From a phage, in the sequence record PV806337.1: DNA of 64,000 bases; one strand, given 5' to 3'. Under the pieces are notes generated by a model. The model had not been told where the DNA came from, ran no database searches, and saw nothing but the letters and a program-made list of their open reading frames with translations. Positions 5,113-60,886 of this stretch are shown piece by piece. Positions within the stretch are counted from its first letter, which is position 1; each line of letters opens with the position of its first letter. Both the position numbers and the translations under genes were made by a program.

Positions 5113-5467
5113 CTGTTTCTAGGTCTTCGTCAGAAAAACTAGAGTATACATCTTTAAGATACTGTTTAATACTCCAAGTAATATCTTCGTACCCATTGGG
5201 GCTACGTTGGTATACTTTTAACACTCTATTATACACAAATTCAAGATTACATTTTACTTCATCTCTGTCTTCATCAAACAAGCAATATGGGTTATAAGGC
5301 GATACATCTAGATTTGTTCCCACCCAATCGCCAATAATGGTAGGGTATCCAACACCCTCTATATGCGAGTAATCACCTGTGGCAGCAAAGACAGCCTCAG
5401 CAATATCATCTACACCCAGATGGAAACTACCACATGTAGATTCAACTATATAGGGCTTTAATTCCAT
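5087..5467 (-). CDS. hypothetical protein
   Basis: ORF track 126 aa. Confidence 0.5.
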   Translation of the reverse strand: MELKPYIVESTCGSFHLGVDDIAEAVFAATGDYSHIEGVGYPTIIGDWVGTNLDVSPYNPYCLFDEDRDEVKCNLEFVYNRVLKVYQRSPNGYEDITWSIKQYLKDVYSSFSDEDLETVAVEFNND

Positions 5468-5566
5468 ATCTTTCTCCTCTCAAATTTATAAATCTATTAT
5501 ATATAAATTTTTGGCTGAAAGCAAATAAAATAAAAGCCAGGTCGACTAGCAACCCGGCTGATTAGC

Positions 5567-7414: not shown

Positions 7415-8072
7415 TAATTATTTCCTCAATAAACCTTGCTACTACTTCTGGCTCAATACTAAAAAATTCTGTAGCACCATCAAAATCTTTATATTGACAA
7501 TTATATTCCTTAAACTGTAAATGGGTTTCTCTCTCAATATGCATAGCTTTTGATCTATCTGAAAAGCTATACTCCTTAAATATTTTTAAATCATGTATGT
7601 TAGAGGAAGTTTTAATATCTCTGAGTCTATCTTTAGTTCTGCTAGACACACCTATTTTGGTTCCCACATTACTTACTAAAATATATACGTTAGTAGGATA
7701 ATTATCCTTCTCTAATAAACATATAGGACAACCAGAATTATGATTTCTAACACTATCAAGTGTAGACTCCCATTTATGATCATTCTCACAGCTGAACATG
7801 ATTTTACTCTTGGAATTGATATATTTACCTTCCATCTTTATTCCACGGGCAGCTAAAGATTCATTTACTTCTTTAAGATCTAAAGTACGGCTAGCACAAT
7901 AAGGGCAACCTCTACCACCTTTTACGTTATCTACTCTAGCCTCCCAACTATGCCCATTAGAGCACTTAAATATAGCCTTGGATTTAGCTGATACATACGT
8001 GCTTAGCATAACTATTCCTCTAGGAGCAAGTGCTAAGTTCACATCTTCTGTAGTTATTTTCTTTCTTACCAT
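7401..8072 (-). CDS. tandem zinc-ribbon + T5orf172 (GIY-YIG-like) domain protein
   Basis: ORF track 223 aa; two repeats with GCPYC/GCPIC; C-terminal YILVSN..KIGVS..R..GATEFF pattern. Confidence 0.6.
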   Translation of the reverse strand: MVRKKITTEDVNLALAPRGIVMLSTYVSAKSKAIFKCSNGHSWEARVDNVKGGRGCPYCASRTLDLKEVNESLAARGIKMEGKYINSKSKIMFSCENDHKWESTLDSVRNHNSGCPICLLEKDNYPTNVYILVSNVGTKIGVSSRTKDRLRDIKTSSNIHDLKIFKEYSFSDRSKAMHIERETHLQFKEYNCQYKDFDGATEFFSIEPEVVARFIEEIINEQR

Positions 8073-8294
8073 TAAATTCTCCTTAATTCACATATTATAC
8101 ATAATTCCACCCCATACGTCAACTACATTTTTCTAATACTATTTGACTTTTGATTTTTATCAATTTTTATTGATGCTATACAGCATAATATCTTTACATA
8201 TAAATAAATGATTATCTAGTATCATATTTCTACCTTTATAAGCAAGTAAATTTTTTATTTAAAAGCAATATCATAGGTTTATTTAAAATTATAC

Positions 8295-8323
8295 TTGCTT
8301 TTTGCTGTAAACCTTGTTATAAT
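8295..8323 (+). promoter_or_regulatory. T5-type sigma70 early promoter (TTGCTT-17-TATAAT) for phoH-nrdA operon
   Basis: -35 at 8295-8300, -10 at 8318-8323, A/T-rich upstream. Confidence 0.7.
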
Positions 8324-8399
8324 ATATTTGTAAGTTGATAAACAAGATCTCTTTGTTGATCCTCTGTTAGAAGCGAAGTACACTATAGGAGTGTTATTT

Positions 8400-9152
8400 A
8401 TGGGAAAAGCACGTCAAAAAAGAGAGAACCGCAATGGTTCAAGAAAGCGTGGCAACAAGTATGAGAATAACGTAATTCAGGCTGATTTTTCTAATGATTA
8501 CGCTAACCCAGTTGCTAAATCCCTAGTAGGTAAAAACCGCGAGCAAAAATCATATATCAATATGATCAAGAACAACACAGTGACTGTGGGCATCGGTGAG
8601 CCAGGTACTGGTAAAACCTTTATTCCGTCCGTTCTTGCAGCTCAGGAACTCGTAGACATTCACTCAGATATTGAGCAAGTGATCCTCGTACGTCCTAATG
8701 AACCTCTAGGTAAGTCTCTTGGTATGCTTCCTGGTGATCTAGCAGAAAAGCTAGAGCCTTGGTTGGAGCCAATAGCTGATGGTATGAAATGGGCCATCGG
8801 CGATCATGCCTATAAGGGATATGTCGAACGTCAGAAAATTAAATTTTTGGCTGTCGAACATGCTCGTGGCAGAACTTTCAACAACTCCTATGTAATTGTC
8901 GATGAAGCTCAGAATATTTCCGTTGAGGCAATGATTTGTCTTCTAACTCGTGTAGGGCAAGACTGCCGTTTAATTATCTGCGGAGATATAGCTCAGAAAG
9001 ACATTAAAGGTGACTCAGGTCTAGCACTCCTTATGGAAGTCTATGAGAAATACGAAAATGCCCCATTCTCAATGATCGAATTGATTGATAACGTTCGTTC
9101 TGTTGAGTCTAAAGCATTCTATGACATCTTTAAAGACATGGGGAAGGTGTAA
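8400..9152 (+). CDS. phoH: PhoH-like ATPase
   Basis: ORF track frame; ATG 8400 with AGGAG 8 nt upstream; Walker A GEPGTGKT and Walker B VIVDEAQN. Confidence 0.8.
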   Translation: MGKARQKRENRNGSRKRGNKYENNVIQADFSNDYANPVAKSLVGKNREQKSYINMIKNNTVTVGIGEPGTGKTFIPSVLAAQELVDIHSDIEQVILVRPNEPLGKSLGMLPGDLAEKLEPWLEPIADGMKWAIGDHAYKGYVERQKIKFLAVEHARGRTFNNSYVIVDEAQNISVEAMICLLTRVGQDCRLIICGDIAQKDIKGDSGLALLMEVYEKYENAPFSMIELIDNVRSVESKAFYDIFKDMGKV

Positions 9153-9153
9153 T

Positions 9154-9375
9154 ATGGGAAACGTCGTTCATCTGAGCCGTAAAACTAAAATACATCGTAC
9201 TTCACTGAGTGCTGCTAATATGATTACACGTAAGGAAGGGGAAGAAAGTCCTAAGACAACCCTAGCGTGGAAAATTGTAACCTCAAATCCAAATAAACCA
9301 TTCAATTATAACGAGTTGAGCACCTCCATAGATATTCTATTAAAAGAAGTAGCTAGAACTAAAGTAATTGAATAA
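9154..9375 (+). CDS. hypothetical protein
   Basis: In-frame ATG 9154 immediately after phoH stop within track ORF 9085-9375. Confidence 0.45.
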   Translation: MGNVVHLSRKTKIHRTSLSAANMITRKEGEESPKTTLAWKIVTSNPNKPFNYNELSTSIDILLKEVARTKVIE

Positions 9376-9517
9376 GCTAAAAAGCTAGACTGGTAATATA
9401 CAGGGCCTGGGTATGAAAATACTCGGGCCTTTTCTATCAGAAAATTTTATTTGCCTAATGACCGATAATAAAGTAGAATATTCCTTAAATCCTGATAACT
9501 ATAAAAAGGAAAGCCAA

Positions 9518-11848
9518 ATGAGCCATCGCATTGAAAAAGTAATTAAACGTGACGGTACTGTAGAAGACTTTGCTCCTGAAAAAATCAATGGTTGGGCAGA
9601 GTATGGTTGCAAAACAGTTGATGTAAGCTGGTCAGCCATTACTATGGCTGCTCAAAAAACTCTGCCTAAAGGGGTTGTAGATTCCGACACTCTGATGGAT
9701 GCATTAATTAAAGCTGCTGAAAGTCTTATTAAAGATAATCCAGCATACGATGTGCCAGCAAAGGAATTACGTCTTGCGCAAATGCGTAAACGCCTTTATG
9801 ACTCTTTCGAACCACCTTCTTTACGCTTCTTCCATGACCACATGGTTAGCGTAGGTGCATGGGAAGACATGAGTGCATGGATTACCGATGAGCAATTTGA
9901 AGCTCTGAATCAGGTTATCGACCATGATCGTGACCGTCTTTTTACTAGTGGTGGGCTGAAGCAGTTCTTTGATAAGTATTCCCGTCGTAATATAGCCACT
10001 GGTGAAATTTATGAAACCCCGCAATTCGCCTACATGGGTATGGCAATGGCGATGTTATCTCAACCTAACTGGACAATTCTAGATGCAATCGACCTCTACA
10101 ACGCAATGTCGCTCCACAAAATCAACGTTCCTACGCCGCCACTGGTTGGTCTGCGCTCTAGTGACCGTGGATTTGCTAGTTGCTGTCTCGTGGATTCCAC
10201 TGACACGTTGGATTCAATCGACACCGCCGAGCACATCGTCTTCAAAATGGTCGCAGCCAGAGCGGGAATCGGGTATCATCTTGAAAGCCGATCAATTGCT
10301 GATCCGGTGCGAAATGGGGCATTCCCGCATTCCGGAAAACTGCCATATTATCGACACATTGACCGCTCAGTAAAGGCCAATACTCAGCAAACTCGTGGTG
10401 GTTCTGCTACAGTGTCTTATCCATACTTCGACCCTGAAATCATTCAATTGATGCAGGTTAAGCAACAACGTGCTACAGATGAGAATAAAATCGATAAGAT
10501 GGATTATTCTCTGAGCTTTAACAATCTTTTGTTAAAACGTTATCTTAAAAACGAAGATATTACGCTAATGTCATACTTCTATGCTCCAGAAGTTCATGAA
10601 GCGTTTTATAGTGATGACGAGGCTAAATTTGAAGAAATCTACGTGGCAGCGGAGAAACGTGTGGCATCTCTTACAAAGATCGACCACGAAGGAAAAACAG
10701 TTCCTGCAGCTCCTAAAGTCTCTGCAAAAGAAATCCTAGATACTTGGCTACGTATCCGAATGGAAACAGGACGTATGTATGCTCACCACATTGGGGAATC
10801 TAATCGTCACGGTAACTTCCTTGATCCGATCCGTATGACAAACCTTTGTGTTGAAATTACTCAGCCTACACGCCCGTTCCATCACATTACAGAGCTGTAC
10901 AAGACAAAAGAGCAGCTTGATCAAATGAAGCCGGAGGATATTGGTGAAGTATCTCTGTGTAACTTAGGTGGTGTTGTACTTGGACGCATGGAATCTCTGG
11001 CTGAGTGGGAAAAAACTTGCTACATCCTTCTGAAGTTTGTTGATACAATTATTGAAATTCAGGATTATCCGTTCCCAACTATGGAATATACGGCCAAGAA
11101 ACGTCGTAATGTCGGTATTGGCCTAATGAACGCAGCAGGTGCAATGGCAGCAGAAGGTCTGGCTTACGAAGGTATTGAAGCTCGTAACTGGATCCACCGT
11201 GAGGCTGAAAAACTGTCTTACTTCCTGCATAAAGCCTCTGTACGCCTGGCTAAGGAACAGGGTGCATGTGAGTGGTTTGATCGTACTAAACCATCTAAAG
11301 GAATTCTGGTAATCGACACGTACAAGAAAACTGTTGATGAGCTGGTATCCGTAGGTCTAGAAATGGACTGGGAGTCTCTGCGTGCAGATATTCTGAAATA
11401 TGGTATGCGTAACTCTGTTCTGACTGCTCAGATGCCGGGAGAAAGTTCTTCTGTTCTGTTAGGTGTTACTAACTCTATCGAACCACCTCGTAAGATTGTA
11501 TCTATCAAGGGTAGTGCAGTAAATAAAGTAATTGCAATTGCTCCAGGTGCAACCGATTGGGAAACGTTAATGAGCTATAAATTGGCTTATGATGTAGATC
11601 GTATCGAGTGGATCAAATGGGTAGCAACTATGCAGAAATTCTTCAGCCAGTCTGTTAGTACTAATATGTACTACGACTACACCAAGTTTGAGAATGAAAT
11701 TATTCCTGGCCCAGTAGTAGTTCGTGATTTCATGACTGCTGTTAAATACGGGTGGAAAACTTGGTATTATGCTAACTTCAACACCGCAAATGGTGGTGGT
11801 GCTGGAGAAGAAGCAGCTGGTTGTGCATCAGGCGGTTGTACTATTTAA
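9518..11848 (+). CDS. nrdA: ribonucleoside-diphosphate reductase alpha subunit (class I RNR)
   Basis: Track ORF 9413-11848; ATG 9518 after AAAGGAAAG; N-terminal ATP-cone KRDGT, core motifs NLCVEI and C-terminal Cys pair. Confidence 0.9.
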   Translation: MSHRIEKVIKRDGTVEDFAPEKINGWAEYGCKTVDVSWSAITMAAQKTLPKGVVDSDTLMDALIKAAESLIKDNPAYDVPAKELRLAQMRKRLYDSFEPPSLRFFHDHMVSVGAWEDMSAWITDEQFEALNQVIDHDRDRLFTSGGLKQFFDKYSRRNIATGEIYETPQFAYMGMAMAMLSQPNWTILDAIDLYNAMSLHKINVPTPPLVGLRSSDRGFASCCLVDSTDTLDSIDTAEHIVFKMVAARAGIGYHLESRSIADPVRNGAFPHSGKLPYYRHIDRSVKANTQQTRGGSATVSYPYFDPEIIQLMQVKQQRATDENKIDKMDYSLSFNNLLLKRYLKNEDITLMSYFYAPEVHEAFYSDDEAKFEEIYVAAEKRVASLTKIDHEGKTVPAAPKVSAKEILDTWLRIRMETGRMYAHHIGESNRHGNFLDPIRMTNLCVEITQPTRPFHHITELYKTKEQLDQMKPEDIGEVSLCNLGGVVLGRMESLAEWEKTCYILLKFVDTIIEIQDYPFPTMEYTAKKRRNVGIGLMNAAGAMAAEGLAYEGIEARNWIHREAEKLSYFLHKASVRLAKEQGACEWFDRTKPSKGILVIDTYKKTVDELVSVGLEMDWESLRADILKYGMRNSVLTAQMPGESSSVLLGVTNSIEPPRKIVSIKGSAVNKVIAIAPGATDWETLMSYKLAYDVDRIEWIKWVATMQKFFSQSVSTNMYYDYTKFENEIIPGPVVVRDFMTAVKYGWKTWYYANFNTANGGGAGEEAAGCASGGCTI

Positions 11849-43998: not shown

Positions 43999-44578
43999 AT
44001 TCTGGTCAGACTTGCACCTAGACCACCCTGGAGCGTTACGTTTCCGTCCGTGGTTTAAGAACATGAAGGAGCACGATGAGTATATTCTAGACACTTTGTC
44101 CAAGCATATTGGTAAACGAACAAAACTTATTTTGCTAGGAGATATTGCAGTAGGTCGTGAAGGTCTGGCCAAGTTAAAGTCGGTTATCCACAATGTCCCT
44201 AATCAACTCATTATGGGTAATCATGATGCGGAGCGTCAAGGACTGAGTATTAGGGACTTAGCGGAAGTTTATGACGATATTCAAGCTCTAGGCAAACAGA
44301 CTGGAGGTGGCAAAAAGTTTTGGCTATCTCACTGCCCTTTGCATCCCAATGAACTTCGTGGCAAACTAAATATTCACGGACATGTACATACTACTTCTTT
44401 ACGTGACCCACGTTATATTAATGTCTCATTTGAAATGAGTAGAACTCCAATTCCACTAGAGGATATTGTGTCTGGTAAGTTTACTAGTTACGATAGAGTG
44501 GTTAATTGTACTACCGGCGAGGTATTACAAATAGGAGAAGACGTAGCTGCTGTATTGCGTGGCGATATAAATGTCTAA
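43988..44578 (+). CDS. metallophosphoesterase
   Basis: ORF track 196 aa; DLHLDH, GDIAVG, GNHD motifs. Confidence 0.6.
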   Translation: MKVKFWSDLHLDHPGALRFRPWFKNMKEHDEYILDTLSKHIGKRTKLILLGDIAVGREGLAKLKSVIHNVPNQLIMGNHDAERQGLSIRDLAEVYDDIQALGKQTGGGKKFWLSHCPLHPNELRGKLNIHGHVHTTSLRDPRYINVSFEMSRTPIPLEDIVSGKFTSYDRVVNCTTGEVLQIGEDVAAVLRGDINV

Positions 44579-49999: not shown

Positions 50000-50029
50000 T
50001 TGACATTCGTGAGAATAATGTGTTATAAT
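50000..50029 (+). promoter_or_regulatory. consensus sigma70 promoter (TTGACA-18-TATAAT) with no ORF downstream
   Basis: TTGACA 50000-50005, TATAAT 50024-50029; next about 300 nt lack a credible ORF and lead into the repeat field. Confidence 0.6.
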
Positions 50030-50369
50030 AATCTCATAGATTAAAAACATCAACTTGTTTTTACCTCTAGGCCGTAGATTTACATCATTCCTCGTAGGAA
50101 AACACTTGATGACGGTTCTGCTCGCAGGTTCTCGTCAATTGTTCTTCCACACCGAGACTTAGGAGGATGTATCAAATCGCACGCGCCTAGAGGGGCTAAC
50201 TCTCATGAAATGGGGGTATATTTACTTTTAAATAACTAAAAAATATTTAAAGGCAATATCTGTGTTCAAGATGATACACCTGTTGCCGCTCTCCATCTCT
50301 AGGATCACATACACTTTCCTAGAAACTCCAGAGTTCTCACTAAATACTCACGAAATATCACACTTCTAG

Positions 50370-50442
50370 TGGGCGGTTCTCCTAAGTTTCTAGGAACATA
50401 TACTAGGCGGTTAATATAGGGCGGTTAATATAGGGCGGTTAT
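50370..50442. repeat. tandem GGCGGTT-containing direct repeats (TAGGGCGGTTAATA x3 plus variant)
   Basis: Copies at 50405-50417, 50417-50430, 50431-50442, variant 50370-50380. Confidence 0.8.
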
Positions 50443-50485
50443 TTCTAGGAGACATTTTTCCAAAACACATTTCCAGAAATTACTA

Positions 50486-51085
50486 TCGGATTTGCACATT
50501 GTGTTTCTAGAAATTTATGGTCGGATTTGCACAAACGCCTAAGTTTTTAGGAACTCTTACTCCCCTGAAAATGGCAGCATTATTTCGGGCCGAAGGCCCA
50601 TAATTGCCTGAGTTTTTAGAGCCACAGAAATTTTCACTTGTCAAGCTATTTTGCCCCATTTTGCTAATAAAATTTTACTTTATCTCCACTAATCTCAAAT
50701 TAACCCAAATCTTCTCAACTCTTCCCCAAAAACGCAGCAAATCAGGCGTTGCACGCCACCCATGCTGCTCCTCCAGTTTCTCCCCTTATTTTCTCTCGCT
50801 CTCTCATCTTCTCCTCAAACCCATACAATCACACACCCTCTCATCGAAGTCACAAAAATCTTGTCGGATTCGCACATCTTAATCCTAGAAAAACCGTGTC
50901 GGATTTGCACATACCCCACAGGATTCGAACGCAGTTCGTGATTGCTGGAGTTTTTAGGAAAATTCATTGTCGGATTTGCACACTATAAAAATTTTTCGGG
51001 TCGGATTTGCACACTACCAAAAATTGTCGGATTTGCACACACACGCCCACGCGTAATCCATGGGGGCAAATGTCGGTTTTGCACA
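50486..51085. repeat. dispersed 14-bp direct repeat GTCGGATTTGCACA, 8 copies (injection-stop-signal-like region)
   Basis: Copies near 50486, 50520, 50863 (variant), 50898, 50969, 51000, 51026, 51072 (variant), irregular spacing. Confidence 0.8.
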
Positions 51086-51119
51086 AAAGCGCAGGGCAAT
51101 TGCCCTGCTCGCCTGAATG

Positions 51120-51300
51120 CGAATGATAATGAGAATGATTCTCATTTAAAAAGCGGAATGAGAATGATAATAATTCGCATTTAAGAATGGAAGTGAGAAT
51201 TATTCAGGAAGTGAAACGATTCTCATTTAAAAAGCAGAATGATTCTCATTTAGAAAGTGGAACGCAAATAATAGTGATTCGTATTTAAGAACGGAAGTGA
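51120..51300. repeat. palindromic repeat family (GAATGAGAATGATTCTCATTTAAAAAGC-like)
   Basis: Several similar ~25-bp units, each a near-palindrome around GAGAATGATTCTC; further copy at 51623-51643. Confidence 0.7.
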
Positions 51301-51426
51301 GAAACACTATTATTTAAGTTATCCACAGACTTATTAACAGCACGATTTGACTTGACAGAATCCTAGCCATTTTGGGGTGTTATTAACAGACTTATCCACA
51401 GCTTATCCTACTGTATAAATATACAG
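51297..51426. repeat. left arm of ~130-bp imperfect inverted repeat with two DnaA-box motifs
   Basis: TTATCCACA at 51319-51327 and 51392-51400; ends in palindrome CTGTATAAATATACAG; reverse complement matches 55251-55380. Confidence 0.8.
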
Positions 51427-51794
51427 TATTCCTACGCAGTGAATAATTCTAATATAGCGTTAAAACGTCCTAGATCGCATTCTAACGCGTTTAATTTTGG
51501 TGGAGATACTAAAACAAGGGCAAAATTGGAGGAGGCTTGAAAATTAGTTAGCTCGCTAACGATCACACAAGGCGACACGTAACACCCTAATCATTAGCAG
51601 GCTAACCATCGCGGGCGCGGTCAAATGAGAATGATTCTCATTTGAGAATTGGGGGCACTTCCCGATAGTTGCGCCCCGTGATTATTATAGTAGCGGGCAA
51701 CCGTTACGCTTTGCCCACTCCCGCCACTCATCTTGATGCCTAGACTTGCGACGGCGTACTAAAAACCGCTTGTACCAGTGATTAAACCATCGTT

Positions 51795-51998
51795 TCATAA
51801 ACCCTCCTCCGGTAGTCGATGCGTGATCTTCTCCTCCTCCCCGTAGGAATCCACCAAATACTGATAATAACCATCGTGATCATAAATCACTTTATCATAT
51901 TCGCCCCGCTCGACCGCTTGCCGATTCTCCGGCGTATCTGGCACGTAAAAAACATCAACCATTGTACTGATTTTGGTTACAATAATTTTATTGCTCAT
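51795..51998 (-). CDS. hypothetical protein (pre-early block)
   Basis: ORF track 67 aa in GC-richer block between inverted repeats. Confidence 0.45.
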   Translation of the reverse strand: MSNKIIVTKISTMVDVFYVPDTPENRQAVERGEYDKVIYDHDGYYQYLVDSYGEEEKITHRLPEEGL

Positions 51999-52221
51999 AA
52001 TAACGCTCCGTTATTAAAAATTACCATATATTCCCGGCCAAATTTTACTAGTAACATAAGTTACTATTCCTGCCGTAATTATGCTATAAACTACTAATAA
52101 GGTAAACATTAAACCAGACATAATAACTCCTAGTAAATATATTTTTGCCAATGGTGGCGAACGTTGTCGCCACCAGCGGAATCATTAGCTGCCTTAACAT
52201 TACCAACGAAAATATATAATC

Positions 52222-52581
52222 TCATTGCGCCACCTTTCGAAATGCTGTTTCAATACTTTCCGCAGTTGATTGAATATACACGCCTTTCATTATCAAGCGC
52301 TCAGTGCATACCTTACGGAAAATATTAATAAAATCCTCTTCATTTTCCGCGATTAATGCCTCACCCATAACCTGAACGTCACAAGATGCAAAGGTCAAAA
52401 ATTGAAATGCTAGTTCACGGGCAACGACCGCATTAATTTTATAATGCGCCTTTCCCTCATAAATATTAATAACGCCCTTATAAGCTGGGGAAAGCTGGTT
52501 TAAATAGTTTGCTAATAATGCCGGACGGCAATTAGCAACAAAGCGATTGCCTTCATAAATTATCATTTGCATAGCTCCCAA
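52222..52581 (-). CDS. hypothetical protein (pre-early block)
   Basis: ORF track 119 aa. Confidence 0.5.
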   Translation of the reverse strand: MGAMQMIIYEGNRFVANCRPALLANYLNQLSPAYKGVINIYEGKAHYKINAVVARELAFQFLTFASCDVQVMGEALIAENEEDFINIFRKVCTERLIMKGVYIQSTAESIETAFRKVAQ

Positions 52582-52681
52582 ATAGTTCCGCCGATGATCA
52601 TTAGCTGACTAATAATTATCAGAATAAAACCAATTGAAGGCAGGACGCCCCAAAAACGAAAAGCCGTTTTAATTTGCTGAA

Positions 52682-52894
52682 TCATAATACCCCACGAAAA
52701 GCAGCGTAAAAGGTGGCAAAATGTTTAACTGTTTCAGCTATCACGTTGCCGCGCTTATCAAATTTTTTCTCGGTAACACGAAAGGCATTTTTGTTACGTG
52801 CTACATATTCGATTTTACAATCTTCCCGCTCGAACGTGTTAACATCCACCAGCTTAAAGCCTTTCGAACGTGCAAGGGAAACGTTGCGGATCAT
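52682..52894 (-). CDS. hypothetical protein (pre-early block)
   Basis: ORF track 70 aa; overlapping forward ORFs judged spurious. Confidence 0.45.
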   Translation of the reverse strand: MIRNVSLARSKGFKLVDVNTFEREDCKIEYVARNKNAFRVTEKKFDKRGNVIAETVKHFATFYAAFRGVL

Positions 52895-53095
52895 TTTTAT
52901 TCTCCTTTACTAGTCATGCAGCCCAGCAGATAAGAAAACGCAGCAATGCCAGCGCCAATAATAACAGCGTGAACGCCGAAAGCTATCGCAAATAACGATA
53001 AAATAGCGCCCAAGATACCCGCTAAAATAGATCGAAAAATAACCATTTGTGATAGCCTCCTAGTTATCGGGGCGAAAGTAACGCCCCGTTATTAA

Positions 53096-53404
53096 TTACA
53101 TTAAAACAATTTTAGCGGCTTGTTTTTTAGTGCAATGTTCAGCTTTCAGGGTATCCAGTAAAAAGCCAGCCGTTTGCTGATCGATTTTATCGGCGTTATA
53201 TAGTTCCTGAATGGTATTATAAGTTTTAGCAATGCCGAACTCCTGCACCATTTCATAGATGACAGCACGATTAGATACCCAGCCTTGCGCGGTAAACAGA
53301 TGACTAGCAGAAGAATAAGCAACCATTTTAAGCCTCCAAATTTTTGGGAAAATTTTCAATCCACCGTTTTGGTGTAAAAGCATTATAACAAAAAAGGCCA
53401 CCAT
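53096..53404 (-). CDS. hypothetical protein (pre-early block)
   Basis: ORF track 102 aa. Confidence 0.5.
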   Translation of the reverse strand: MVAFFVIMLLHQNGGLKIFPKIWRLKMVAYSSASHLFTAQGWVSNRAVIYEMVQEFGIAKTYNTIQELYNADKIDQQTAGFLLDTLKAEHCTKKQAAKIVLM

Positions 53405-53431
53405 AAAAGGCGACCTTTACAAAACTTTACA

Positions 53432-53926
53432 TTAGACTACTTGCAGGGATTCAATATTGAAACATCGTTTCAATTCGTCATGCAAAACAGCGTATTCATC
53501 CCATCGGGTACTATCAGGAATATAAACAAGCTGTTTTAATCGGTTTGCGTATATTACCGCTTTGTTATCAATTATCTCGACGCCACCATATTTAATAATT
53601 AATTTCATGACGGAATTAATAGGATCGCCGCCGTTTACATATGTGCCGGATTTACTTAGCTGATAATGATAAAGGCTTGCATATACGTTTTCATTTTCAT
53701 ACCATTCGCCAGTTTCTTCGTCTTCATAGCCATCGCTACCAAAACGAGAAGCATTATCAATAGCCATTTCATGAGCGAAAGCGTCCAGATCCGTACCAGC
53801 AGGAACAAAGTATTCTTCGGTGTTCCCTTCTCCGCAATAGCCAGTATGACAATCGACTAAAATGATCATATCATGTTTAGCCGTGCTCACTTCTCCTAGC
53901 GAGAAGCCGTATTTTTCCTCAGCCAT
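53432..53926 (-). CDS. hypothetical acidic protein (pre-early block)
   Basis: ORF track 164 aa. Confidence 0.55.
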   Translation of the reverse strand: MAEEKYGFSLGEVSTAKHDMIILVDCHTGYCGEGNTEEYFVPAGTDLDAFAHEMAIDNASRFGSDGYEDEETGEWYENENVYASLYHYQLSKSGTYVNGGDPINSVMKLIIKYGGVEIIDNKAVIYANRLKQLVYIPDSTRWDEYAVLHDELKRCFNIESLQVV

Positions 53927-53991
53927 TAGTTAGCCTCCTATTAATTAACAAGGGAATAGTAAAGTGGGGAAATAATCCCCACTAAATATTA

Positions 53992-54984
53992 TTACTCGAT
54001 TTCGGTGCTAGTGGTAAAAGTAGAAATATCAATACCTTTCACCATTTCATCAATCATTTCAGCGATGTTAAAACTTTGCACCATTTCCAGCATTGCCGCT
54101 TCCATAGCCGCCCCTGCTACCGCTTTCGCTTTCTGGTTAGTCGGTGCGTACTGGTCAACCGCTACACTTAGCAGGTTAGCAATCACTACTCGACCAATCG
54201 GCGTATCAATATAGCCTTTAATCATGAACGGTGCTTTTTTAGCCGCTACTTTCGTGATTTGAGTCAGTGCAATTTTACCCGCTTCCAGTTTTGCAGCATT
54301 TACAACAGCAGACTTATTGGCGGCAACGATATTAGCGATCTTGGTCATGGTATTTTTTCCTTTGTTTTCAGTAGTTTGAGTGTTAACGCTTTGAGTGTTA
54401 GAATTTACAGCATGTTTTTCGATGTTGTCAATAGGCTGATCTTCCTCCTTCCAGAAAGTAAAACCAGCCTCCTCTATTAAATCATTATATACATACGGGT
54501 ATAATTCCGACGGTAGCAAAAAATTACCGTTATCATCAAAAGCCATTATAGCCGCAAAACGATACCCGTGATAATCTGATCGATTCCACCCAATTGATAA
54601 ATAACGCCAAAATGAATCGAGAAAATTTTCTACGTCATAAAGATCCTTATCATAAGGCTCATAATTTTCTATCGTGAAAACTTCTAAGCCCATCCCCGCA
54701 TCATAGGCTTTTACTGTACTGCCTTTCACTATAATAAAATCAGTATCTGGCCCTCGACTAGTAAGCAAGTGAGATTCCTGATTATATAAAACAAGCGTTG
54801 CCCCTTGATTATATAACGGTAGAAAACTATTCATATTATAAGCATCGTAATCATCAAGAAAATTACGATGAATAGTTTCAATATTGAAAACAAAATGTTT
54901 AATGCTGGTTGTTCTGCTACCGTCCAGCAGGTTACGCAGCGCGCCTTTTAAGACGGTTGCGTTATCTGGTTTATACAGCCTCAT
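53992..54984 (-). CDS. hypothetical protein (pre-early block)
   Basis: ORF track 330 aa. Confidence 0.55.
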   Translation of the reverse strand: MRLYKPDNATVLKGALRNLLDGSRTTSIKHFVFNIETIHRNFLDDYDAYNMNSFLPLYNQGATLVLYNQESHLLTSRGPDTDFIIVKGSTVKAYDAGMGLEVFTIENYEPYDKDLYDVENFLDSFWRYLSIGWNRSDYHGYRFAAIMAFDDNGNFLLPSELYPYVYNDLIEEAGFTFWKEEDQPIDNIEKHAVNSNTQSVNTQTTENKGKNTMTKIANIVAANKSAVVNAAKLEAGKIALTQITKVAAKKAPFMIKGYIDTPIGRVVIANLLSVAVDQYAPTNQKAKAVAGAAMEAAMLEMVQSFNIAEMIDEMVKGIDISTFTTSTEIE

Positions 54985-55250
54985 TTGTTGGCCTCCCTCG
55001 TTAATCGGTGAGTGAATGATAAAGGTAATTTTCTAGCATGGGCAAATATTATTTTACCTTTTTATTTTCCTTGCCTAACGCCTAGTTTTATGCTAACCGC
55101 GCAGCGGTGCAATAAAGAGCAAAACACGGCGAAGCCACCAGGGCGACGCGTTGCGGCTTTACTTTAACATTACCCTACAGCATTTTGCTCGTTAGAAAGC
55201 GATTTAGGCCGCTTAAAATTGATTGCAGTTGTTAACACTACCTTTTTACC

Positions 55251-55380
55251 CTGTATATTTATACAGTAGGATAACCTGTGGATAAGTCTGTGTAAAAGTC
55301 CTTATATCGCCGCCTATCGTGTCAAGTCAAAAAGTGCTGTGGATAACTTTGTGTATAACTTAAATGATAGTGGTTCTCAC
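55251..55380. repeat. right arm of ~130-bp imperfect inverted repeat with two DnaA-box motifs
   Basis: TGTGGATAA at 55277-55285 and 55338-55346; starts with CTGTATATTTATACAG; inner ~40 bp nearly identical to left arm, outer part diverged. Confidence 0.8.
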
Positions 55381-55900
55381 TTAGCTAGATGATTTCTTAT
55401 AGTTATTATTTCTCATTAATTTATATGTATATTATATATCATGAAATAGTTAGTTGGCTAATGAGATTTTTCCGTGATTAATAGTCTGCTAATAATTCAG
55501 GTCGTTACAATCCACCAGCATGATTATCATTCTAGCAATTATTAGTCTGCTATCTTTCCGATGCATACTAACAAATAAAAGTCAATTAATTTATTTCATA
55601 AAATAAGTAGTTATCCACTGGAAAATAAAAGTCAAGTGGATAACTAGGAAAATTTCATTTTTGCTTTTGGGGATAAGTTATCAACAAGGCTAGAATGCGC
55701 CTAAAACGCTCCAGAACGCAATAAAGTTTTTAGCCATCCCATCATAAGGGGATAAGCCGTTTATCGTTACCACGAGCTTTTTAGATTTTGTCAAGTAGGG
55801 CAAAGCAAATATAAATGAAAAAATTACTTGCCTATTTGCTTTATTTTGTGGTATTCGCGCGCCCGTTTCTTTTAATTTTAGGCCGTCGCCGCACGGTGTC
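55380..55900. promoter_or_regulatory. AT-rich non-coding control region with further DnaA-box-like motifs upstream of pre-early genes
   Basis: TTATCCACT (~55610) and GTGGATAAC (~55637) in inverted orientation; repeated AATAAAAGTCAA; no ORF. Confidence 0.45.
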
Positions 55901-56090
55901 CGGTGAGTTTTACCTTTACATTTCTTTACAAAAATAAGGTTGCGCCATTTTCGGGAATCCCCTATTATTTATCTCGTAGGGCGGCAATGACGAACTACAC
56001 GGCGGGAAGTTTACCGCCACGCTCTTTAAAAATTGGGTATATCTTAAAGCCTATCGGCGGTAAACTTATTCATTATAAGGAATCGACGAT

Positions 56091-56294
56091 ATGAAACAAA
56101 CGCTTTTGATCACTGGCAAGCCTAGCAAGGCACTAGATAGCAAAACAAAAAACTTGTTGACAGTAGCGCAAAATTCTGTAAAATGGCGATTCAAGCAATA
56201 TTTGCAAGGTCGCCAGCAAGGTTTAGAAATGATCTGGCGAAACATTATGATTGACCTGAAGGAAAATCATAAAAAATCTCAAAAAATTGTTTGA
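56091..56294 (+). CDS. hypothetical small protein
   Basis: ORF track 67 aa. Confidence 0.4.
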   Translation: MKQTLLITGKPSKALDSKTKNLLTVAQNSVKWRFKQYLQGRQQGLEMIWRNIMIDLKENHKKSQKIV

Positions 56295-56520
56295 CAGCCT
56301 AGCCGATAGGTTTTAAGATGTACCCAGTTCGAAAAGAGCGATAACTTGATAAAATTTGACGGTCGGTGCTTACCATAATGCATCCCGCCCCCTAACGGGA
56401 TATAGCGGCCTACGTGGAGTTCTTTAAATTGATTAAACTGGCGAGCGGATTGTTACTTATTACCTGCTACTTTCTAGCAGGTAATGCGGAACAATCCCCA
56501 AATAACTAGGAGTTTATATT

Positions 56521-56772
56521 ATGCAAAACGTTATTACCGCGCCTAAAATTGGTCAATCCGTTTTTATTCCTTTCGTTACTAAAACGGACGAATTAACCGG
56601 AAAAGCCGAACGTATTAAAGGTGCGGCGCTTATGCCGTTCGATACAATCGACGCGGTATACACTGAAAATGAACGCAGTAACAACGGCAAGCCCGTTTTT
56701 AGCGTTCGCGTTAAATCCGGCGATGTTGTAAAGGTTGTTCAACGCAACGAAAAATGGGAAGCTGTTTTATAA
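56521..56772 (+). CDS. hypothetical protein
   Basis: ORF track 83 aa with AGGAG RBS. Confidence 0.5.
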   Translation: MQNVITAPKIGQSVFIPFVTKTDELTGKAERIKGAALMPFDTIDAVYTENERSNNGKPVFSVRVKSGDVVKVVQRNEKWEAVL

Positions 56773-56870
56773 TTTAGTGCTAACTTTATATCCCTCTTAT
56801 TTCAGGGGGATATAACGATTAACATTAAGTTAATCTAATCCCTTAAATTAAACTAATAGGAGTTTTTACC

Positions 56871-57278
56871 ATGACTAACGCAAAAACCGCAAAATTCGCA
56901 TGGAATGAAGAAAACACTCAGAAAGCTGTTACCATGTACCAGCAGTTAATCAACGAAAACGGTTTAGATTTTGCAAATAGCGACGGCCTGAAAGAGATTG
57001 CAAAAGCAGTAGGCGCGGCCTCCCCCGTATCCGTTCGCTCAAAATTGACCAGTGCAAAAGCCTATCAAAAAAGCGATAAGCCGCGTAAAGTTGGCGGCGG
57101 TAGCTCTGTGCGTAAAGCTCACTATGTGCGCGTTATCGCTAAACATGCTATTGATTCCGGCATTATCAAAGACGCCGATGATTTGGCAAGCCTTGAAAGT
57201 GCAAAACTTGAAACGCTGGACGCAGTAGCGCAATTGTTAGGCGTTGCCGATGAAGTAAAACAGGCCGCAGGCGAATAA
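56871..57278 (+). CDS. hypothetical protein
   Basis: ORF track 135 aa with AGGAG RBS; terminator hairpin 57291-57311. Confidence 0.55.
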   Translation: MTNAKTAKFAWNEENTQKAVTMYQQLINENGLDFANSDGLKEIAKAVGAASPVSVRSKLTSAKAYQKSDKPRKVGGGSSVRKAHYVRVIAKHAIDSGIIKDADDLASLESAKLETLDAVAQLLGVADEVKQAAGE

Positions 57279-60151: not shown

Positions 60152-60886
60152 ATGAGTAAAGCTATTATGAATATTTCCCGCAGCTTCCCGCATATTTCCC
60201 GCGTCATGATTTGGGATCTGGACGGCACTATCATTAATTCTTTCCATCGTGTAGCACCCTGCTTTGATAGCGAGGGCAATTTAGATTTAAATAAGTATAA
60301 AAATGAAGCCTGCAAACATGATTTAATAATGCAAGATACTTTATTGCCCCTTGTTACATATATGCGCCAGTGCATGAATGACGCAAATACATTAAACATT
60401 ATTTGCACCGCTCGACTGATGAGCAAGTCGGATTATTATTTCTTGCGTAAACAAGGCTTGCGCGGTCGTGATAAAAGCAATATCCGCGTTTTTTCCCGCG
60501 ACACACTGCATAAATATTTTGAAGCTGATAAAGTTAGCGAAATTTACCATAGTAAAGACGCTATATATAAAAGCCATTATTTTGAGCTATTTAAACAGTT
60601 ATATCCGAACGCTGATTTTACGATGATTGACGATCATAAAGGTGTGCTATCGGCGGCGGCATCATACGGATTTAAAACGCTGGACGCGCAAGCTATTAAC
60701 GATATTCTATCGATTGGGGTTACATTGATAGGTGAAACCTTTATTGATGAATCTCTTGAGGATGATAATGATTATCAGTTCCTAGCCGACCGCCTGCAAT
60801 TATGTTGGGAAGGTATGACCGAAGAAGAACGCGCAGAATATAGTTGCAGCCCGCAACAATATATTGAGAAATTAAAAGTTGCGTAA
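60152..60886 (+). CDS. dmp: 5'-deoxyribonucleotidase (HAD-like)
   Basis: ORF track 244 aa; N-terminal MIWDLDGTIINS HAD motif; size and synteny as recalled for T5 dmp. Confidence 0.6.
   Translation: MSKAIMNISRSFPHISRVMIWDLDGTIINSFHRVAPCFDSEGNLDLNKYKNEACKHDLIMQDTLLPLVTYMRQCMNDANTLNIICTARLMSKSDYYFLRKQGLRGRDKSNIRVFSRDTLHKYFEADKVSEIYHSKDAIYKSHYFELFKQLYPNADFTMIDDHKGVLSAAASYGFKTLDAQAINDILSIGVTLIGETFIDESLEDDNDYQFLADRLQLCWEGMTEEERAEYSCSPQQYIEKLKVA

What the first reader, a model, noticed from the sequence alone, without database searches (positions are those of the whole stretch)
51297..55380. A 3.8-kb GC-richer gene block bracketed by 130-bp inverted repeats carrying DnaA boxes
The arms 51297-51426 and 55251-55380 are reverse complements of each other. 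The inner ~40 bp are nearly identical and the outer part is diverged. Each arm ends in the palindrome CTGTATAAATATACAG and carries two consensus DnaA boxes (TTATCCACA). Between them lie at least six reverse-strand ORFs (51795-54984) plus small hydrophobic ORFs, with visibly higher GC than the AT-rich early region. This geometry fits an invertible or once-mobile segment, a replication or DnaA-titration element, or part of the two-step injection control architecture of T5-like phages. None of the enclosed proteins has a recognisable function, which makes this the best place in the window for an undescribed pre-early host-takeover or anti-defence module.
Basis: seen in the sequence. Interest (0 to 1): 0.75.

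Follow-up and report, generated by a model that had tools for sequence, protein, structure and literature searches.

The report
T5 injection-stop inverted repeats, rediscovered
The two 132-bp inverted repeats are the already-published IRC/IRD elements of the T5-phage first-injected DNA, which carry DnaA boxes and flank a dispensable accessory gene cassette; the one apparently unreported detail is a near-perfect LexA (SOS) operator at the inner end of each arm, conserved across most of the phage family sampled.

Summary
Arms 51295-51426 and 55251-55382 are 80% complementary and hold 4 of the window's 5 TTATCCACA boxes. They bracket ten reverse-strand ORFs.

It is already known. The window is a Tequintavirus (97% identical to phage MM-1). 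The arms are T5's 'IRD'-spacer-IRC'' and 'IRC-spacer-IRD' repeats. Davison (2020) proposed them as part of the injection stop signal acting through membrane-bound DnaA; this remains untested.

The segment is not mobile and not an active invertible switch. It has no recombinase and no target duplication, and no copy occurs in 5,426 E. coli genomes. Orientation is fixed in all 36 close relatives. The arms are under purifying selection and show no concerted evolution.

A published T5 mutant lacking the A2-side arm and the whole cassette is viable. One enclosed protein is T5's Ung-dependent AP-site nickase.

Three additions:
- The terminal 'palindrome' matches the LexA operator consensus at 19 of 20 positions. 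It is conserved beside DnaA boxes in six of seven Demerecviridae lineages sampled.
- The cassette is evolutionarily inverted in Sugarlandvirus and in phage My1.
- The diverged part of the arms is the centre, not the outer end.

The GC enrichment is marginal.

The parts
51295..51426 (.). Left (iss-side) arm, homologue of T5 IRD'-spacer-IRC' (Repeat Region 3)
   Evidence: Inverted repeat I1. 90% identical to T5 9407-9542. Described in Davison 2020.
55251..55382 (.). Right (A2-side) arm, homologue of T5 IRC-spacer-IRD (Repeat Region 2)
   Evidence: Inverted repeat I1. 82% identical to T5 6098-6232. This arm lies inside the viable T5 deletion ~5394-9160.
51319..51339 (+). Outer DnaA-box pair of the left arm: TTATCCACA, 3 bp, TTATTAACA
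51380..51400 (+). Inner DnaA-box pair of the left arm: TTATTAACA, 3 bp, TTATCCACA. A third DnaA-like TTATCCTAC follows and overlaps the LexA-like site.
55277..55297 (-). Inner DnaA-box pair of the right arm: TTATCCACA and TTTTACACA
55338..55358 (-). Outer DnaA-box pair of the right arm: TTATCCACA and TTATACACA
   Evidence: The two pairs are 61 nt apart start-to-start in both arms (families D15 and D16).
51409..51428 (.). LexA-operator-like site TACTGTATAAATATACAGTA, 19/20 to the consensus TACTG(TA)5CAGTA
   Evidence: 1 mismatch, 0.00 matches expected by chance. Approximate weight matrix gives 25.9 bits against a maximum of 23.1 for known SOS boxes. Conserved across genera.
55249..55268 (.). 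LexA-operator-like site CCCTGTATATTTATACAGTA, with a perfect CTGT-N8-ACAG core
   Evidence: 3 mismatches. 22.8 bits.
51438..51523 (.). Degenerate inward extension of the left arm, paired with 55151-55239. Core CCTAGATCGCATTCTAACG against CCTAAATCGCTTTCTAACG.
   Evidence: local alignment score 43 against shuffles 21.8 +/- 4.5 (maximum 45). Modest support. Homologous to the Sugarlandvirus inner flanks.
55151..55239 (.). Degenerate inward extension of the right arm
53992..54984 (-). 330-aa protein, T5 gene 011 homologue (DUF7566, PF24450; phrog_4263). First gene of the cassette.
   Evidence: Reported toxic with nucleoid reorganisation in T5. AlphaFold model unusable.
53432..53926 (-). 164-aa protein (phrog_6741), function unknown. 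No match in the T5 terminal-repeat locus; present in Sugarlandvirus and My1.
53096..53404 (-). 102-aa ORF. The PHROG match covers residues 27-102, so the real start is probably internal. T5.012 homologue.
52897..53046 (-). 49-aa hydrophobic protein (phrog_5607)
52682..52894 (-). 70-aa protein, 100% identical to the T5 endonuclease that nicks abasic sites made by host Ung (phrog_4227)
   Evidence: Function as cited.
52222..52581 (-). 119-aa protein (phrog_4379), 91% identical to the T5 ORF at 8300-8644
51795..51998 (-). 67-aa protein (phrog_6973), homologue of the T5 ORF at 8954-9157. Last sizeable gene of the cassette.
52014..52151 (-). 45-aa hydrophobic ORF. No family match. Conserved in position in L040.
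52563..52685 (-). 40-aa hydrophobic ORF. No family match.
51685..51798 (-). 37-aa ORF, 86% identical to T5 9154-9264
54990..55068 (-). Approximate position of the cassette promoter, by coordinate transfer from the promoter annotated at T5 6411-6489. It lies between the right arm and gene 011, so the arm is not part of the cassette mRNA.
   Evidence: experimentally characterised promoter upstream of 011. Promoter-like hits at 55077-55048 and 55045-55016. The coordinate transfer is my inference.
50520..51294 (.). Rest of the non-coding injection-stop repeat region outside the left arm: GTCGGATTTGCACA repeats and AATGATTCTCATTT palindromes. The equivalent of T5's major 7.9% nick lies at about 51088.
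   Evidence: families D1-D6.; the T5 nick context maps to 51048-51128 at 98.8% identity.

Best explanation
The arms are this phage's copies of the T5-family IRD'-spacer-IRC' and IRC-spacer-IRD elements. They are conserved, non-coding, protein-binding sites in the first-step-transfer (FST) DNA of the left terminal repeat. They flank the variable, dispensable accessory pre-early operon (T5 genes 011-017).

Each arm is a composite landing pad for host DNA-binding proteins. It has two pairs of DnaA boxes 61 nt apart, and a near-consensus LexA operator abutting (and overlapping a third DnaA-like box next to) the inner pair.

Proposed mechanism. DNA enters left end first. The A2-side arm enters, then the cassette. 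The iss-side arm (51295-51428) is the last structured element to enter, about 200 bp before the point equivalent to T5's 7.9% nick and shear site. Abundant host proteins load on it: DnaA as Davison proposed, and probably LexA. The resulting nucleoprotein complex contributes to the pause in DNA transfer until the A1 and A2 proteins release it. The A2-side arm is an auxiliary copy.

SHOWN: the identity of the element; the motifs and their statistical excess; purifying selection; family-wide conservation of the DnaA plus LexA-like module on the iss side; fixed orientation within the genus; dispensability of the distal arm and cassette (from the literature).

INFERRED: that DnaA and LexA actually bind, and that binding causes or modulates the injection pause.

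My confidence that this is the known IRC/IRD element is about 0.97. My confidence that its function is a host-protein-mediated contribution to the injection stop is about 0.4.
For: Identity. The window at 50500-56500 matches 538 T5-like records inside their left terminal repeats. The arms match T5 9407-9542 at 90% and 6098-6232 at 82%. Davison 2020 describes exactly these 131-bp repeats with eight DnaA/DnaA* boxes in pairs 3 bp apart. The T5 record annotates 9140-10149 as the injection stop signal.

Function as cis sites. Arm identity between genomes is 0.79-0.98, against 0.68 at A2 fourfold-degenerate sites. The CTGT/ACAG half-sites are 0.98 and 0.96 identical. Orthologous arms (L-L 0.91, R-R 0.84) are much more alike than paralogous arms. 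Within-genome L-R identity (0.750) equals between-genome L-R identity (0.747), permutation p = 0.11. The motifs are therefore kept by selection, not by recombination between arms.

LexA-like site. It has 1 and 3 mismatches to the 20-nt consensus, with 0.00 matches expected. It scores 25.9 and 22.8 bits, against a median of 19.0 and maximum of 23.1 for genuine SOS boxes; the next window hit scores 16.9. It is retained next to DnaA boxes in T5, Sugarlandvirus, My1, PR1, Vibrio phage 70E37-3 and V. cholerae phage phi3, where A2 identity falls to 36-43% and there is no nucleotide homology. Substitutions fall mainly in the N8 core. Where they touch the half-sites, most give CTGG or CCAG, forms found in natural operators.

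Position. The iss-side module lies 0.5-1 kb inside the inner boundary of the terminal repeat in T5, My1, PR1 and phi3. The T5 nick context maps about 207 bp outside the arm.

Auxiliary status of the second arm. It is absent in PR1 and phi3. It is removed by the viable T5 deletion, which I mapped to ~5394-9160.
Against: No experiment shows DnaA or LexA binding, or any role of these boxes. Papers from 2023 and 2026 state that functional studies are lacking.

Vibrio phage River4 has DnaA boxes on both sides of its cassette but no intact LexA-like box; its best site scores 15.5 bits. LexA binding therefore cannot be universally required.

The LexA-like site does not overlap the known cassette promoter, which lies about 180-250 bp away, so the classical repressor role is not evident.

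A T5-like phage with these arms lists E. coli DH5a as host. DH5a is recA1 (my own knowledge). LexA cleavage therefore cannot be needed for infection.

The weight matrix was built from SOS boxes recalled from the literature, so its scores are approximate.

The invariant palindrome could equally be the target of a conserved phage protein.
Confidence: 0.6

Rival explanations
1. The palindrome, and perhaps the whole arm, is recognised by a phage protein rather than by host LexA. The most plausible candidate is the dimeric DNA-binding protein A2, alone or with A1. Binding would serve to restart transfer, or to cleave or circularise DNA as in Davison's A1/A2 model. The resemblance to an SOS box would then be incidental or mimicry.
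For: A2 and A1 are the only FST genes essential for second-step transfer. A2 is encoded 1.5 kb from the right arm. A palindrome suits a dimer. River4 keeps A2 but has lost the box, which shows the box is not tied to the host alone.
Against: A2 diverges to 36-65% identity across lineages, while the site stays at CTGTATAT..ATACAG. This is easier to explain by a host factor with invariant specificity, as for the DnaA box beside it. A chance match of 19/20 to the LexA consensus has an expected count of 0.00. No sequence specificity is known for A2.
Confidence: 0.2
2. The arms are transcriptional control or boundary elements. LexA and DnaA operators would regulate promoters in or next to the arms, or would act as roadblocks. 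Such roadblocks would stop transcription of the cassette, which runs toward the injection stop region, from reading into DNA that is still entering.
For: The cassette is transcribed toward the iss-side arm and ends at a terminator just before it (T5 9275-9296; hairpin at 51547-51560). Weak promoter-like hexamers overlap the motifs: TTTACA-17-TATCCT immediately upstream of the right LexA-like box, and TTAACA-16-TATATT with its -10 element inside the box. TTGACTTGACA is conserved in both arms.
Against: The promoter-like matches are weak (9-10 of 12) and not conserved in register between the arms or across phages (my reading). The experimentally characterised 011 promoter lies inside the arm, not in it. 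In Sugarlandvirus and My1 the cassette is flipped and transcription runs away from the iss-side arm, yet the arm is kept.
Confidence: 0.15
3. The arms persist mainly as conserved homology anchors. These allow co-infecting T5-like phages to exchange, or occasionally flip, the accessory cassette between them. This would be an evolutionary consequence rather than a molecular function.
For: Arm-to-arm distance ranges from 1.7 to 4.0 kb, and gene content between highly conserved arms is variable. Davison notes the contrast between conserved repeats and an unconserved 3-kb coding region. The cassette is inverted in two genera.
Against: This does not explain base-level constraint on specific motifs far above the synonymous rate. 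It does not explain retention of a single arm in PR1 and phi3. The Sugarlandvirus inversion breakpoints lie inside the cassette (about 52.13-52.23 kb and 54.98-55.15 kb), not in the arms.
Confidence: 0.15
4. The block is an active invertible segment or a (once-)mobile element bounded by terminal inverted repeats.
For: The geometry fits: inverted repeats bracket a gene block. The opposite cassette orientation occurs in Sugarlandvirus and My1.
Against: No invertase, transposase or integrase is present. There is no target-site duplication. Orientation is the same in all 36 close relatives. No copies occur outside Demerecviridae terminal repeats, and none in 5,426 E. coli genomes. The arms are only 75-80% alike and show no concerted evolution. 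The block persists with one arm in PR1 and phi3.
Confidence: 0.03
5. The DnaA-box clusters form a replication origin, or a datA-like sink that titrates host DnaA.
For: There are eight DnaA or DnaA-like boxes per terminal repeat, hence 16 per genome, in oriC-like close pairs.
Against: T5 origins map near the genome centre, and replication genes are not expressed during FST (Davison). No DnaA-trio or 13-mer unwinding element was identified. Sixteen sites are few compared with the hundreds of chromosomal DnaA boxes (my own knowledge).
Confidence: 0.05

Closest known systems
T5 IRC-spacer-IRD / IRD'-spacer-IRC' inverted repeats in Repeat Regions 2 and 3 of the FST DNA (Wang 2005 nomenclature; Heusterspreute 1987 DnaA boxes; Davison 2015 and 2020)
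   Same: Same element by homology (82-90% identity), position, 131-132-bp length, paired DnaA boxes 3 bp apart, fixed spacing between the pairs, and adjacency to the injection stop signal.
   Different: Nothing essential. This phage lacks T5's hegG insertion next to the right arm. All four right-arm boxes fit the consensus. The cassette carries a 164-aa gene with no match in the T5 terminal-repeat locus.
E. coli LexA operators (SOS boxes), for example those of umuDC, dinD and sulA
   Same: CTGT-N8-ACAG palindrome with a TA-rich core. 19/20 match to the 20-nt consensus. Weight-matrix score at or above the best chromosomal operators.
   Different: Not positioned over a recognised promoter. Sits in a virulent phage's non-coding DNA next to DnaA boxes. 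LexA binding is untested. No prior report was found in the searchable library.
oriC / datA-type DnaA-box clusters
   Same: Closely spaced, directly repeated consensus and near-consensus 9-mers suited to cooperative DnaA binding.
   Different: No evidence of origin activity. Lies in DNA that is present before any phage replication function is expressed.
Phage invertible segments (Mu G, P1 C, Salmonella Hin)
   Same: A gene block between inverted repeats. Opposite orientations are seen in different lineages.
   Different: No invertase gene. Arms are five times longer than recombination sites of the hix/gix type and are diverged. No within-genus orientation polymorphism. In Sugarlandvirus the breakpoints are not in the arms.

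Membership tests
T5-type IRC/IRD inverted repeats of the FST DNA | Pair of ~131-bp inverted repeats inside the left terminal repeat, homologous to T5 6098-6232 and 9407-9542 | tested here: met
   132 nt, 80% complementary. 82% and 90% identity to the T5 arms. The locus maps inside annotated left terminal repeats.
T5-type IRC/IRD inverted repeats of the FST DNA | Eight DnaA/DnaA* boxes, in pairs separated by 3 bp, two pairs per arm at fixed spacing | tested here: met
   Boxes at 51319/51331, 51380/51392, 55277/55289 and 55338/55350. Pairs are 61 nt apart in both arms, as in T5.
T5-type IRC/IRD inverted repeats of the FST DNA | One arm at the start of the non-coding injection-stop region, the other between the A2-side promoter region and gene 011 | tested here: met
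   The left arm adjoins the DRD/DRE-type repeats and the T5 nick-context homologue. The right arm lies between the hdi/A2 side and the 011 homologue.
T5-type IRC/IRD inverted repeats of the FST DNA | Participation in two-step DNA injection | not testable with these tools
   Hypothesis only, even for T5 itself.
LexA operator (SOS box) | CTGT-N8-ACAG palindrome close to TACTG(TA)5CAGTA | tested here: met
   1 and 3 mismatches, 0.00 matches expected. 25.9 and 22.8 bits against a known-site median of 19.0 (approximate matrix).
LexA operator (SOS box) | Overlap with a promoter so that LexA represses transcription | tested here: inconclusive
   Only weak promoter-like hexamers overlap the sites, and they are not conserved. 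The characterised 011 promoter is about 180-250 bp away.
LexA operator (SOS box) | Binding by LexA and SOS-dependent behaviour | not testable with these tools
   Needs EMSA, ChIP or host genetics.
Site-specific invertible segment | Dedicated invertase gene within or next to the segment | tested here: not met
   No recombinase family among the ten ORFs or in the annotated neighbours.
Site-specific invertible segment | Both orientations found among close relatives or within a population | tested here: not met
   All 36 Tequintavirus/Epseptimavirus-type loci are collinear. Opposite orientation appears only at genus or subfamily distance. Read-level data are not available.
Transposon / IS / MITE | Transposase, target-site duplication, and copies at other genomic sites | tested here: not met
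   No transposase. Outer flanks are unrelated. The arm is found only in Demerecviridae terminal repeats, at about 2 copies per repeat, and in no E. coli genome.
DnaA-dependent replication origin | DnaA-box cluster plus an adjacent unwinding element, with mapped initiation | tested here: inconclusive
   The box cluster is present. No unwinding element was identified. The literature places T5 origins mid-genome.

The most novel reading that the evidence does not exclude
The T5-family injection-stop arms contain a bona fide host LexA operator that has been overlooked. It is stronger than any chromosomal SOS box, abuts the DnaA boxes, and is conserved in Demerecviridae infecting Escherichia, Salmonella, Klebsiella, Pectobacterium, Providencia and Vibrio. 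If LexA binds there, the pause of T5 DNA entry, or control of the first-entering DNA, would depend on a composite DnaA-LexA nucleoprotein complex assembled from host proteins. That would give the 50-year-old two-step-injection problem a second concrete and genetically tractable host factor.
Probability: 0.35. Interest if true: 0.65.

Novelty: already known. Interest (0 to 1): 0.33.

Why it matters
How T5 stops after injecting 8% of its genome, and then restarts, has been unresolved since the 1960s. The only concrete molecular proposal, membrane-bound DnaA holding the DnaA boxes of these repeats, has never been tested.

The finding itself adds nothing to that, because it rediscovers the published repeats. 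The follow-up sharpens the problem in four ways:
- The arms are under strong purifying selection and do not homogenise each other.
- The A2-side arm is expendable, both in a published viable deletion mutant and in natural single-arm phages. Experiments should therefore target the iss-side arm.
- The most invariant element of the arms is not a DnaA box but a near-perfect LexA operator. This suggests a second host factor to test.
- The accessory cassette has flipped between the arms in at least two lineages. The arms therefore work independently of the direction of cassette transcription.

T5 genome-engineering tools now exist, so these points can be tested directly.

Tried and rejected
1. **Structure of the 330-aa gene-011 protein.** The homology search returned only close relatives (86-95% identity). 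The AlphaFold model had a mean pLDDT of 35, so no fold search was run. Its function stays unknown, in line with the 2026 preprint.

2. **Rfam scan of 50000-57000.** Only two sub-threshold chance hits. The arms are not a known RNA family.

3. **Long-range RNA duplex between the arms.** Rejected. The characterised cassette promoter lies inside the right arm and a terminator precedes the left arm, so the arms are not on the cassette mRNA.

4. **Concerted evolution or gene conversion between arms.** Tested and not found.

5. **Inversion by recombination exactly within the arms.** Not supported for Sugarlandvirus, where the breakpoints lie inside the cassette. It remains possible for My1, where the last cassette gene is also flipped.

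6. **LexA cleavage as the trigger for second-step transfer.** Considered and judged unlikely. A T5-like phage carrying these arms lists DH5a as host, and DH5a is recA1 (my own knowledge).

7. **Inward-facing promoters in the arms (TTTACA/TTAACA ... TATCCT).** The spacing differs between the arms (17 against 15 nt, my reading). Not claimed.

8. **Fur-box resemblance of the AATGAGAATGATTCTCATT palindromes.** One 16/19 match in the iss repeats. Not pursued.

9. **Davison 2015 review.** Could not be retrieved. Heusterspreute 1987 and Wang 2005 were not retrieved either (no look-up was attempted). An earlier mention of an SOS box there cannot be excluded.

Full report
**1. What is in the sequence**

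The repeat finder reports one long inverted repeat in 50500-56500. Its arms are 51295-51426 and 55251-55382: 132 nt, 80% complementary, 3,824 nt apart.

Read in register, the arms have three zones:
- The outer ~63 nt are about 87% identical.
- The central ~22 nt are only 9/22 identical.
- The inner 44 nt are 41/44 identical.

TTATCCACA occurs five times in the 64-kb window against 0.61 expected, and four of the five are in the arms. Each arm carries two pairs of boxes 3 bp apart, and the pairs are 61 nt apart. The left arm has TTATCCACA+TTATTAACA and TTATTAACA+TTATCCACA. All four right-arm boxes fit TTWTNCACA.

The inner ends are CTGTATAAATATACAG and its complement. Ten ORFs on the reverse strand fill the interval, three of them short and hydrophobic.

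The GC claim is weak. The block is 40.2% GC, the window 39.2%, the right flank 40.8% and the left flank 37.0%.

**2. What genome this is, and what the arms are called**

The region matches 538 phage records, nearly all T5-like phages (a few carry other names, such as Listeria or Campylobacter phage). The best is Escherichia phage vB_EcoS_MM-1 at 96.8%. The match runs in reverse orientation at about 4.5-10.5 kb of the annotated left terminal repeats.

A2 is at 56871-57278. T5 coordinate 1 corresponds to about 61004. The whole finding therefore lies in the pre-early, first-step-transfer (FST) DNA.

Against T5 itself (NC_005859), the left arm matches 9407-9542 at 90% and the right arm matches 6098-6232 at 82%. 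Davison's preprint 'Phage T5 two-step injection' describes exactly these elements:
- They are the 131-bp IRC-spacer-IRD (Repeat Region 2) and IRD'-spacer-IRC' (Repeat Region 3).
- 25 T5-like phages were compared; almost all carry both repeats, and the Type 4 phages (PR1, Stubb) only IRD'-spacer-IRC'.
- They carry eight DnaA or DnaA-like boxes in pairs 3 bp apart, with an invariant spacer.
- They are proposed to be part of the injection stop signal (iss), by tethering the entering DNA to membrane-bound DnaA.

The T5 record annotates 9140-10149 as the iss and places the major nick at 9748. That nick context maps to window 51048-51128, about 207 bp outside the left arm.

Papers from 2023 and 2026 still say that the function of these boxes has not been tested.

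**3. The enclosed genes**

The block is the accessory pre-early operon, T5 genes 011-017.
- The 330-aa protein is gene 011 (DUF7566/PF24450, phrog_4263).
- The 70-aa protein is 100% identical to the T5 product annotated as an endonuclease that nicks abasic sites produced by host Ung.
- The 119-, 102-, 67- and 37-aa ORFs have T5 homologues.
- The 164-aa ORF does not.

A 2026 preprint (Annor et al.) reports three relevant results:
- Genes 011, 013 and 015 are toxic when expressed alone.
- 015 is the Ung-dependent nickase.
- A T5 mutant deleted from hegG to 017 is viable, although it makes smaller plaques.

I mapped that deletion's primers onto T5. The homology arms are 5052-5393 and 9161 to about 9497, so the deletion spans about 5394-9160. 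It removes the entire IRC-spacer-IRD arm and the cassette, but keeps the iss-side arm.

The paired geometry is therefore not essential for infection, and the block is dispensable in the laboratory.

My attempt to predict the structure of the 011 protein failed, with mean pLDDT 35 from a shallow alignment.

**4. Mobile, invertible, or fixed?**

I anchored on the conserved A2 protein, so that loci were chosen independently of the arms, and fetched 40 loci from IMG/VR.
- All 39 loci with enough upstream DNA have both arms.
- All 36 of the Tequintavirus/Epseptimavirus type have the cassette in the window's orientation.
- The arm-to-arm distance varies from 1.7 to 4.0 kb.

Database-wide, the arm occurs in 541 phage records at about two copies per terminal repeat. 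It occurs in none of 5,426 complete E. coli genomes. No recombinase or transposase is encoded, and the outer flanks show no target duplication.

In an alignment of 62 arms from 31 distinct genomes:
- Orthologous arms are much more alike (L-L 0.91, R-R 0.84) than the two arms of one genome (0.750).
- The within-genome value equals the between-genome L-R value (0.747; permutation p = 0.11).

The duplication is therefore ancient and the arms do not homogenise each other. This argues against frequent recombination or switching between them.

At greater evolutionary distance, however, the cassette has flipped.
- **Klebsiella Sugarlandvirus** (L040, L041, AmPh_EK80). The homologues of the 330-, 164- and 119-aa proteins (35-38% identity) lie between the same arms, on the A2 strand and in reversed order. 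The left flank, both arms, the left arm's inner flank and everything to the right of ~55151 stay collinear. The breakpoints are at about 52.13-52.23 kb and 54.98-55.15 kb in window coordinates.
- **Pectobacterium phage My1.** The 011, 164-aa and 67-aa homologues are likewise flipped.
- **Providencia PR1.** The 011 homologue has the T5 orientation.
- **Vibrio phages.** By annotated gene strand only, the cassette also has the T5 orientation.

Davison had noted ORFs 'read in the opposite direction' in these types, but took them for unrelated replacement sequence. The protein homology shows an inversion.

What is supported is a rare evolutionary inversion, not an invertible switch.

**5. Are the arms functional?**

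For 29 genomes, identity at fourfold-degenerate sites of the adjacent A2 gene is 0.68. Identities in the arm sub-regions are much higher:

| Sub-region | Left arm | Right arm |
|---|---|---|
| Spacer core | 0.92 | 0.79 |
| Four DnaA boxes | 0.92 | 0.90 |
| Outer AGTGAGAA...TTTAAG block | 0.97 | 0.96 |
| CTGT/ACAG half-sites of the terminal palindrome | 0.98 | 0.96 |

The half-site values are at least as high as A2 codon positions 1+2 (0.955). The arms are clearly under purifying selection.

**6. The terminal 'palindrome' is a near-consensus LexA operator**

Site 51409-51428 reads TACTGTATAAATATACAGTA. That is one mismatch from the LexA consensus TACTG(TA)5CAGTA. The right-arm copy keeps a perfect CTGT-N8-ACAG core. 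These are the only two matches at up to 3 mismatches in the window, with 0.00 expected.

I built a weight matrix from 24 E. coli SOS boxes recalled from the literature, so the scores are approximate.
- The two sites score 25.9 and 22.8 bits.
- Genuine operators score a median of 19.0 and a maximum of 23.1 in leave-one-out scoring.
- The next best window hit scores 16.9.

Among the 62 aligned arms, changes fall mostly in the N8 core. These include recurrent AA/TT flips of the central dinucleotide. In the half-sites, three arms carry CTGG or CCAG, variants common in natural operators, and four right arms carry ACAA, which breaks the CAG.

The same module, DnaA boxes followed by CTGT-N8-ACAG, is the top-scoring site at the corresponding position in each of these:
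- T5.
- Sugarlandvirus.
- My1 (both arms).
- PR1 (iss side only).
- Vibrio phage 70E37-3 (both sides of its cassette, CTGTATATCCATACAG).
- V. cholerae phage phi3 (iss side only).

In the last two, A2 is only 36-43% identical and no nucleotide homology to the window remains. Vibrio phage River4 is the exception: it has DnaA boxes on both sides but only a degenerate box.

Davison's paper never mentions LexA or SOS. Five full-text searches found no paper linking LexA or SOS boxes to T5-type FST DNA. I could not read the 1987, 2005 and 2015 papers (the 2015 look-up failed; the other two were not attempted), so priority cannot be excluded.

**7. Most likely mechanism and its limits**

I take the arms to be landing pads for abundant host DNA-binding proteins on the first DNA to enter the cell. 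The iss-side arm is the last structured element to enter before the pause. A DnaA (and probably LexA) nucleoprotein complex there plausibly contributes to holding the DNA until A1 and A2 act. The A2-side arm is an expendable second copy.

Shown:
- Identity with the published element.
- Motif excess.
- Purifying selection.
- Family-wide retention of the iss-side module.
- Dispensability of the distal arm.

Inferred:
- Protein binding.
- Any effect on injection.

Cautions:
- The LexA-like site does not overlap the characterised cassette promoter.
- River4 lacks it.
- A T5-like phage carrying these arms lists DH5a as host. DH5a is recA1 (my own knowledge). Any LexA role therefore cannot require LexA cleavage.

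Rivals:
- Recognition of the palindrome by phage A2 or A1.
- Operator or roadblock functions in transcription.
- A passive role as homology anchors for cassette exchange.
- An active invertible or mobile element (unlikely).
- A replication origin or DnaA sink (unlikely).

**8. Verdict**

The geometry is real and highly non-random, but it is an already-described feature of T5-like phages, and this window is simply another member.

The mobile and invertible readings are not supported as active processes.

The residual novelty lies in three points, all of which are cheap to test with current T5 engineering tools:
- The conserved LexA-operator-like site.
- The demonstration that the Type 2 and Type 3 cassettes are inverted homologues.
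- The selection and no-homogenisation analysis of the arms.

Noticed in passing
window 51116-51260 and 51620-51644: The repeated palindrome AAATGAGAATGATTCTCATTT and its neighbours, in the injection-stop repeats just outside the left arm, resemble a Fur box. GATAATGAGAATGATTCTC at 51125-51143 matches GATAATGATAATCATTATC at 16 of 19 positions. The window has 3 such matches against 0.04 expected; the other two overlap at 60758-60782. This is curious because T5's receptor FhuA is Fur-regulated (my own knowledge).
   Followed up: partly
window 50520-51090: Six or more copies of GTCGGATTTGCACA (Davison's DRD repeats). Each contains a DnaA-like TTTGCACA, and one is a consensus TTTTGCACA at 51077.
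   Followed up: no
window 55608-55646: A small palindrome made of two facing DnaA-like boxes, TAGTTATCCACTGGA / TCAAGTGGATAACTA. It lies in the intergenic repeat region between the right arm and the A2-side operon (pair I21).
   Followed up: no
window 56020-56058 and 56302-56340: A second inverted repeat (39 nt, 85%) brackets the 67-aa ORF 56091-56294, which by position corresponds to T5.008 (hdi). Strong promoter-like sites lie at 56157 and 56291. This is probably T5's IRA/IRA' around promoters P-H22 and P-D/E20.
   Followed up: no
window 51418-51419 and 55258-55259; arms of L002-L041: The central dinucleotide of the LexA-like palindrome switches between AA and TT as a unit in many phages, independently in the two arms. 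A double change of this kind suggests quasi-palindrome template switching rather than two point mutations.
   Followed up: partly
L040, L041, L043 (Sugarlandvirus) and L047 (My1): The cassette homologues are inverted relative to A2. In Sugarlandvirus both arms also carry the 'left-type' inner flank, so window 51387-51513 matches both sides. Whether this reflects one inversion event or two was not resolved.
   Followed up: partly
window ~61004 and ~50600-50800: The window contains both boundaries of the terminal repeat. T5 coordinate 1 maps to about 61004, and sequence continues beyond it. The source assembly is therefore circularly permuted or has a collapsed terminal repeat (the coordinate arithmetic is mine).
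   Followed up: no
window 51091-51108: A perfect hairpin, GCAGGGCAATTGCCCTGC followed by GCTTTTGTGC on the minus strand, sits at the position equivalent to T5's major 7.9% single-strand interruption.
   Followed up: partly
L045 (Vibrio phage River4) 560-760 and 3720-3980: River4 keeps three TTATCCACA boxes on each side of its cassette, in inverted arrangement, but has only a half LexA-like site (CTGTATATCTACTGG). It is a natural 'DnaA-only' variant and useful as a comparison.
   Followed up: partly
window 44184-44192: The fifth consensus TTATCCACA of the window lies in the early region, far from the arms.
   Followed up: no
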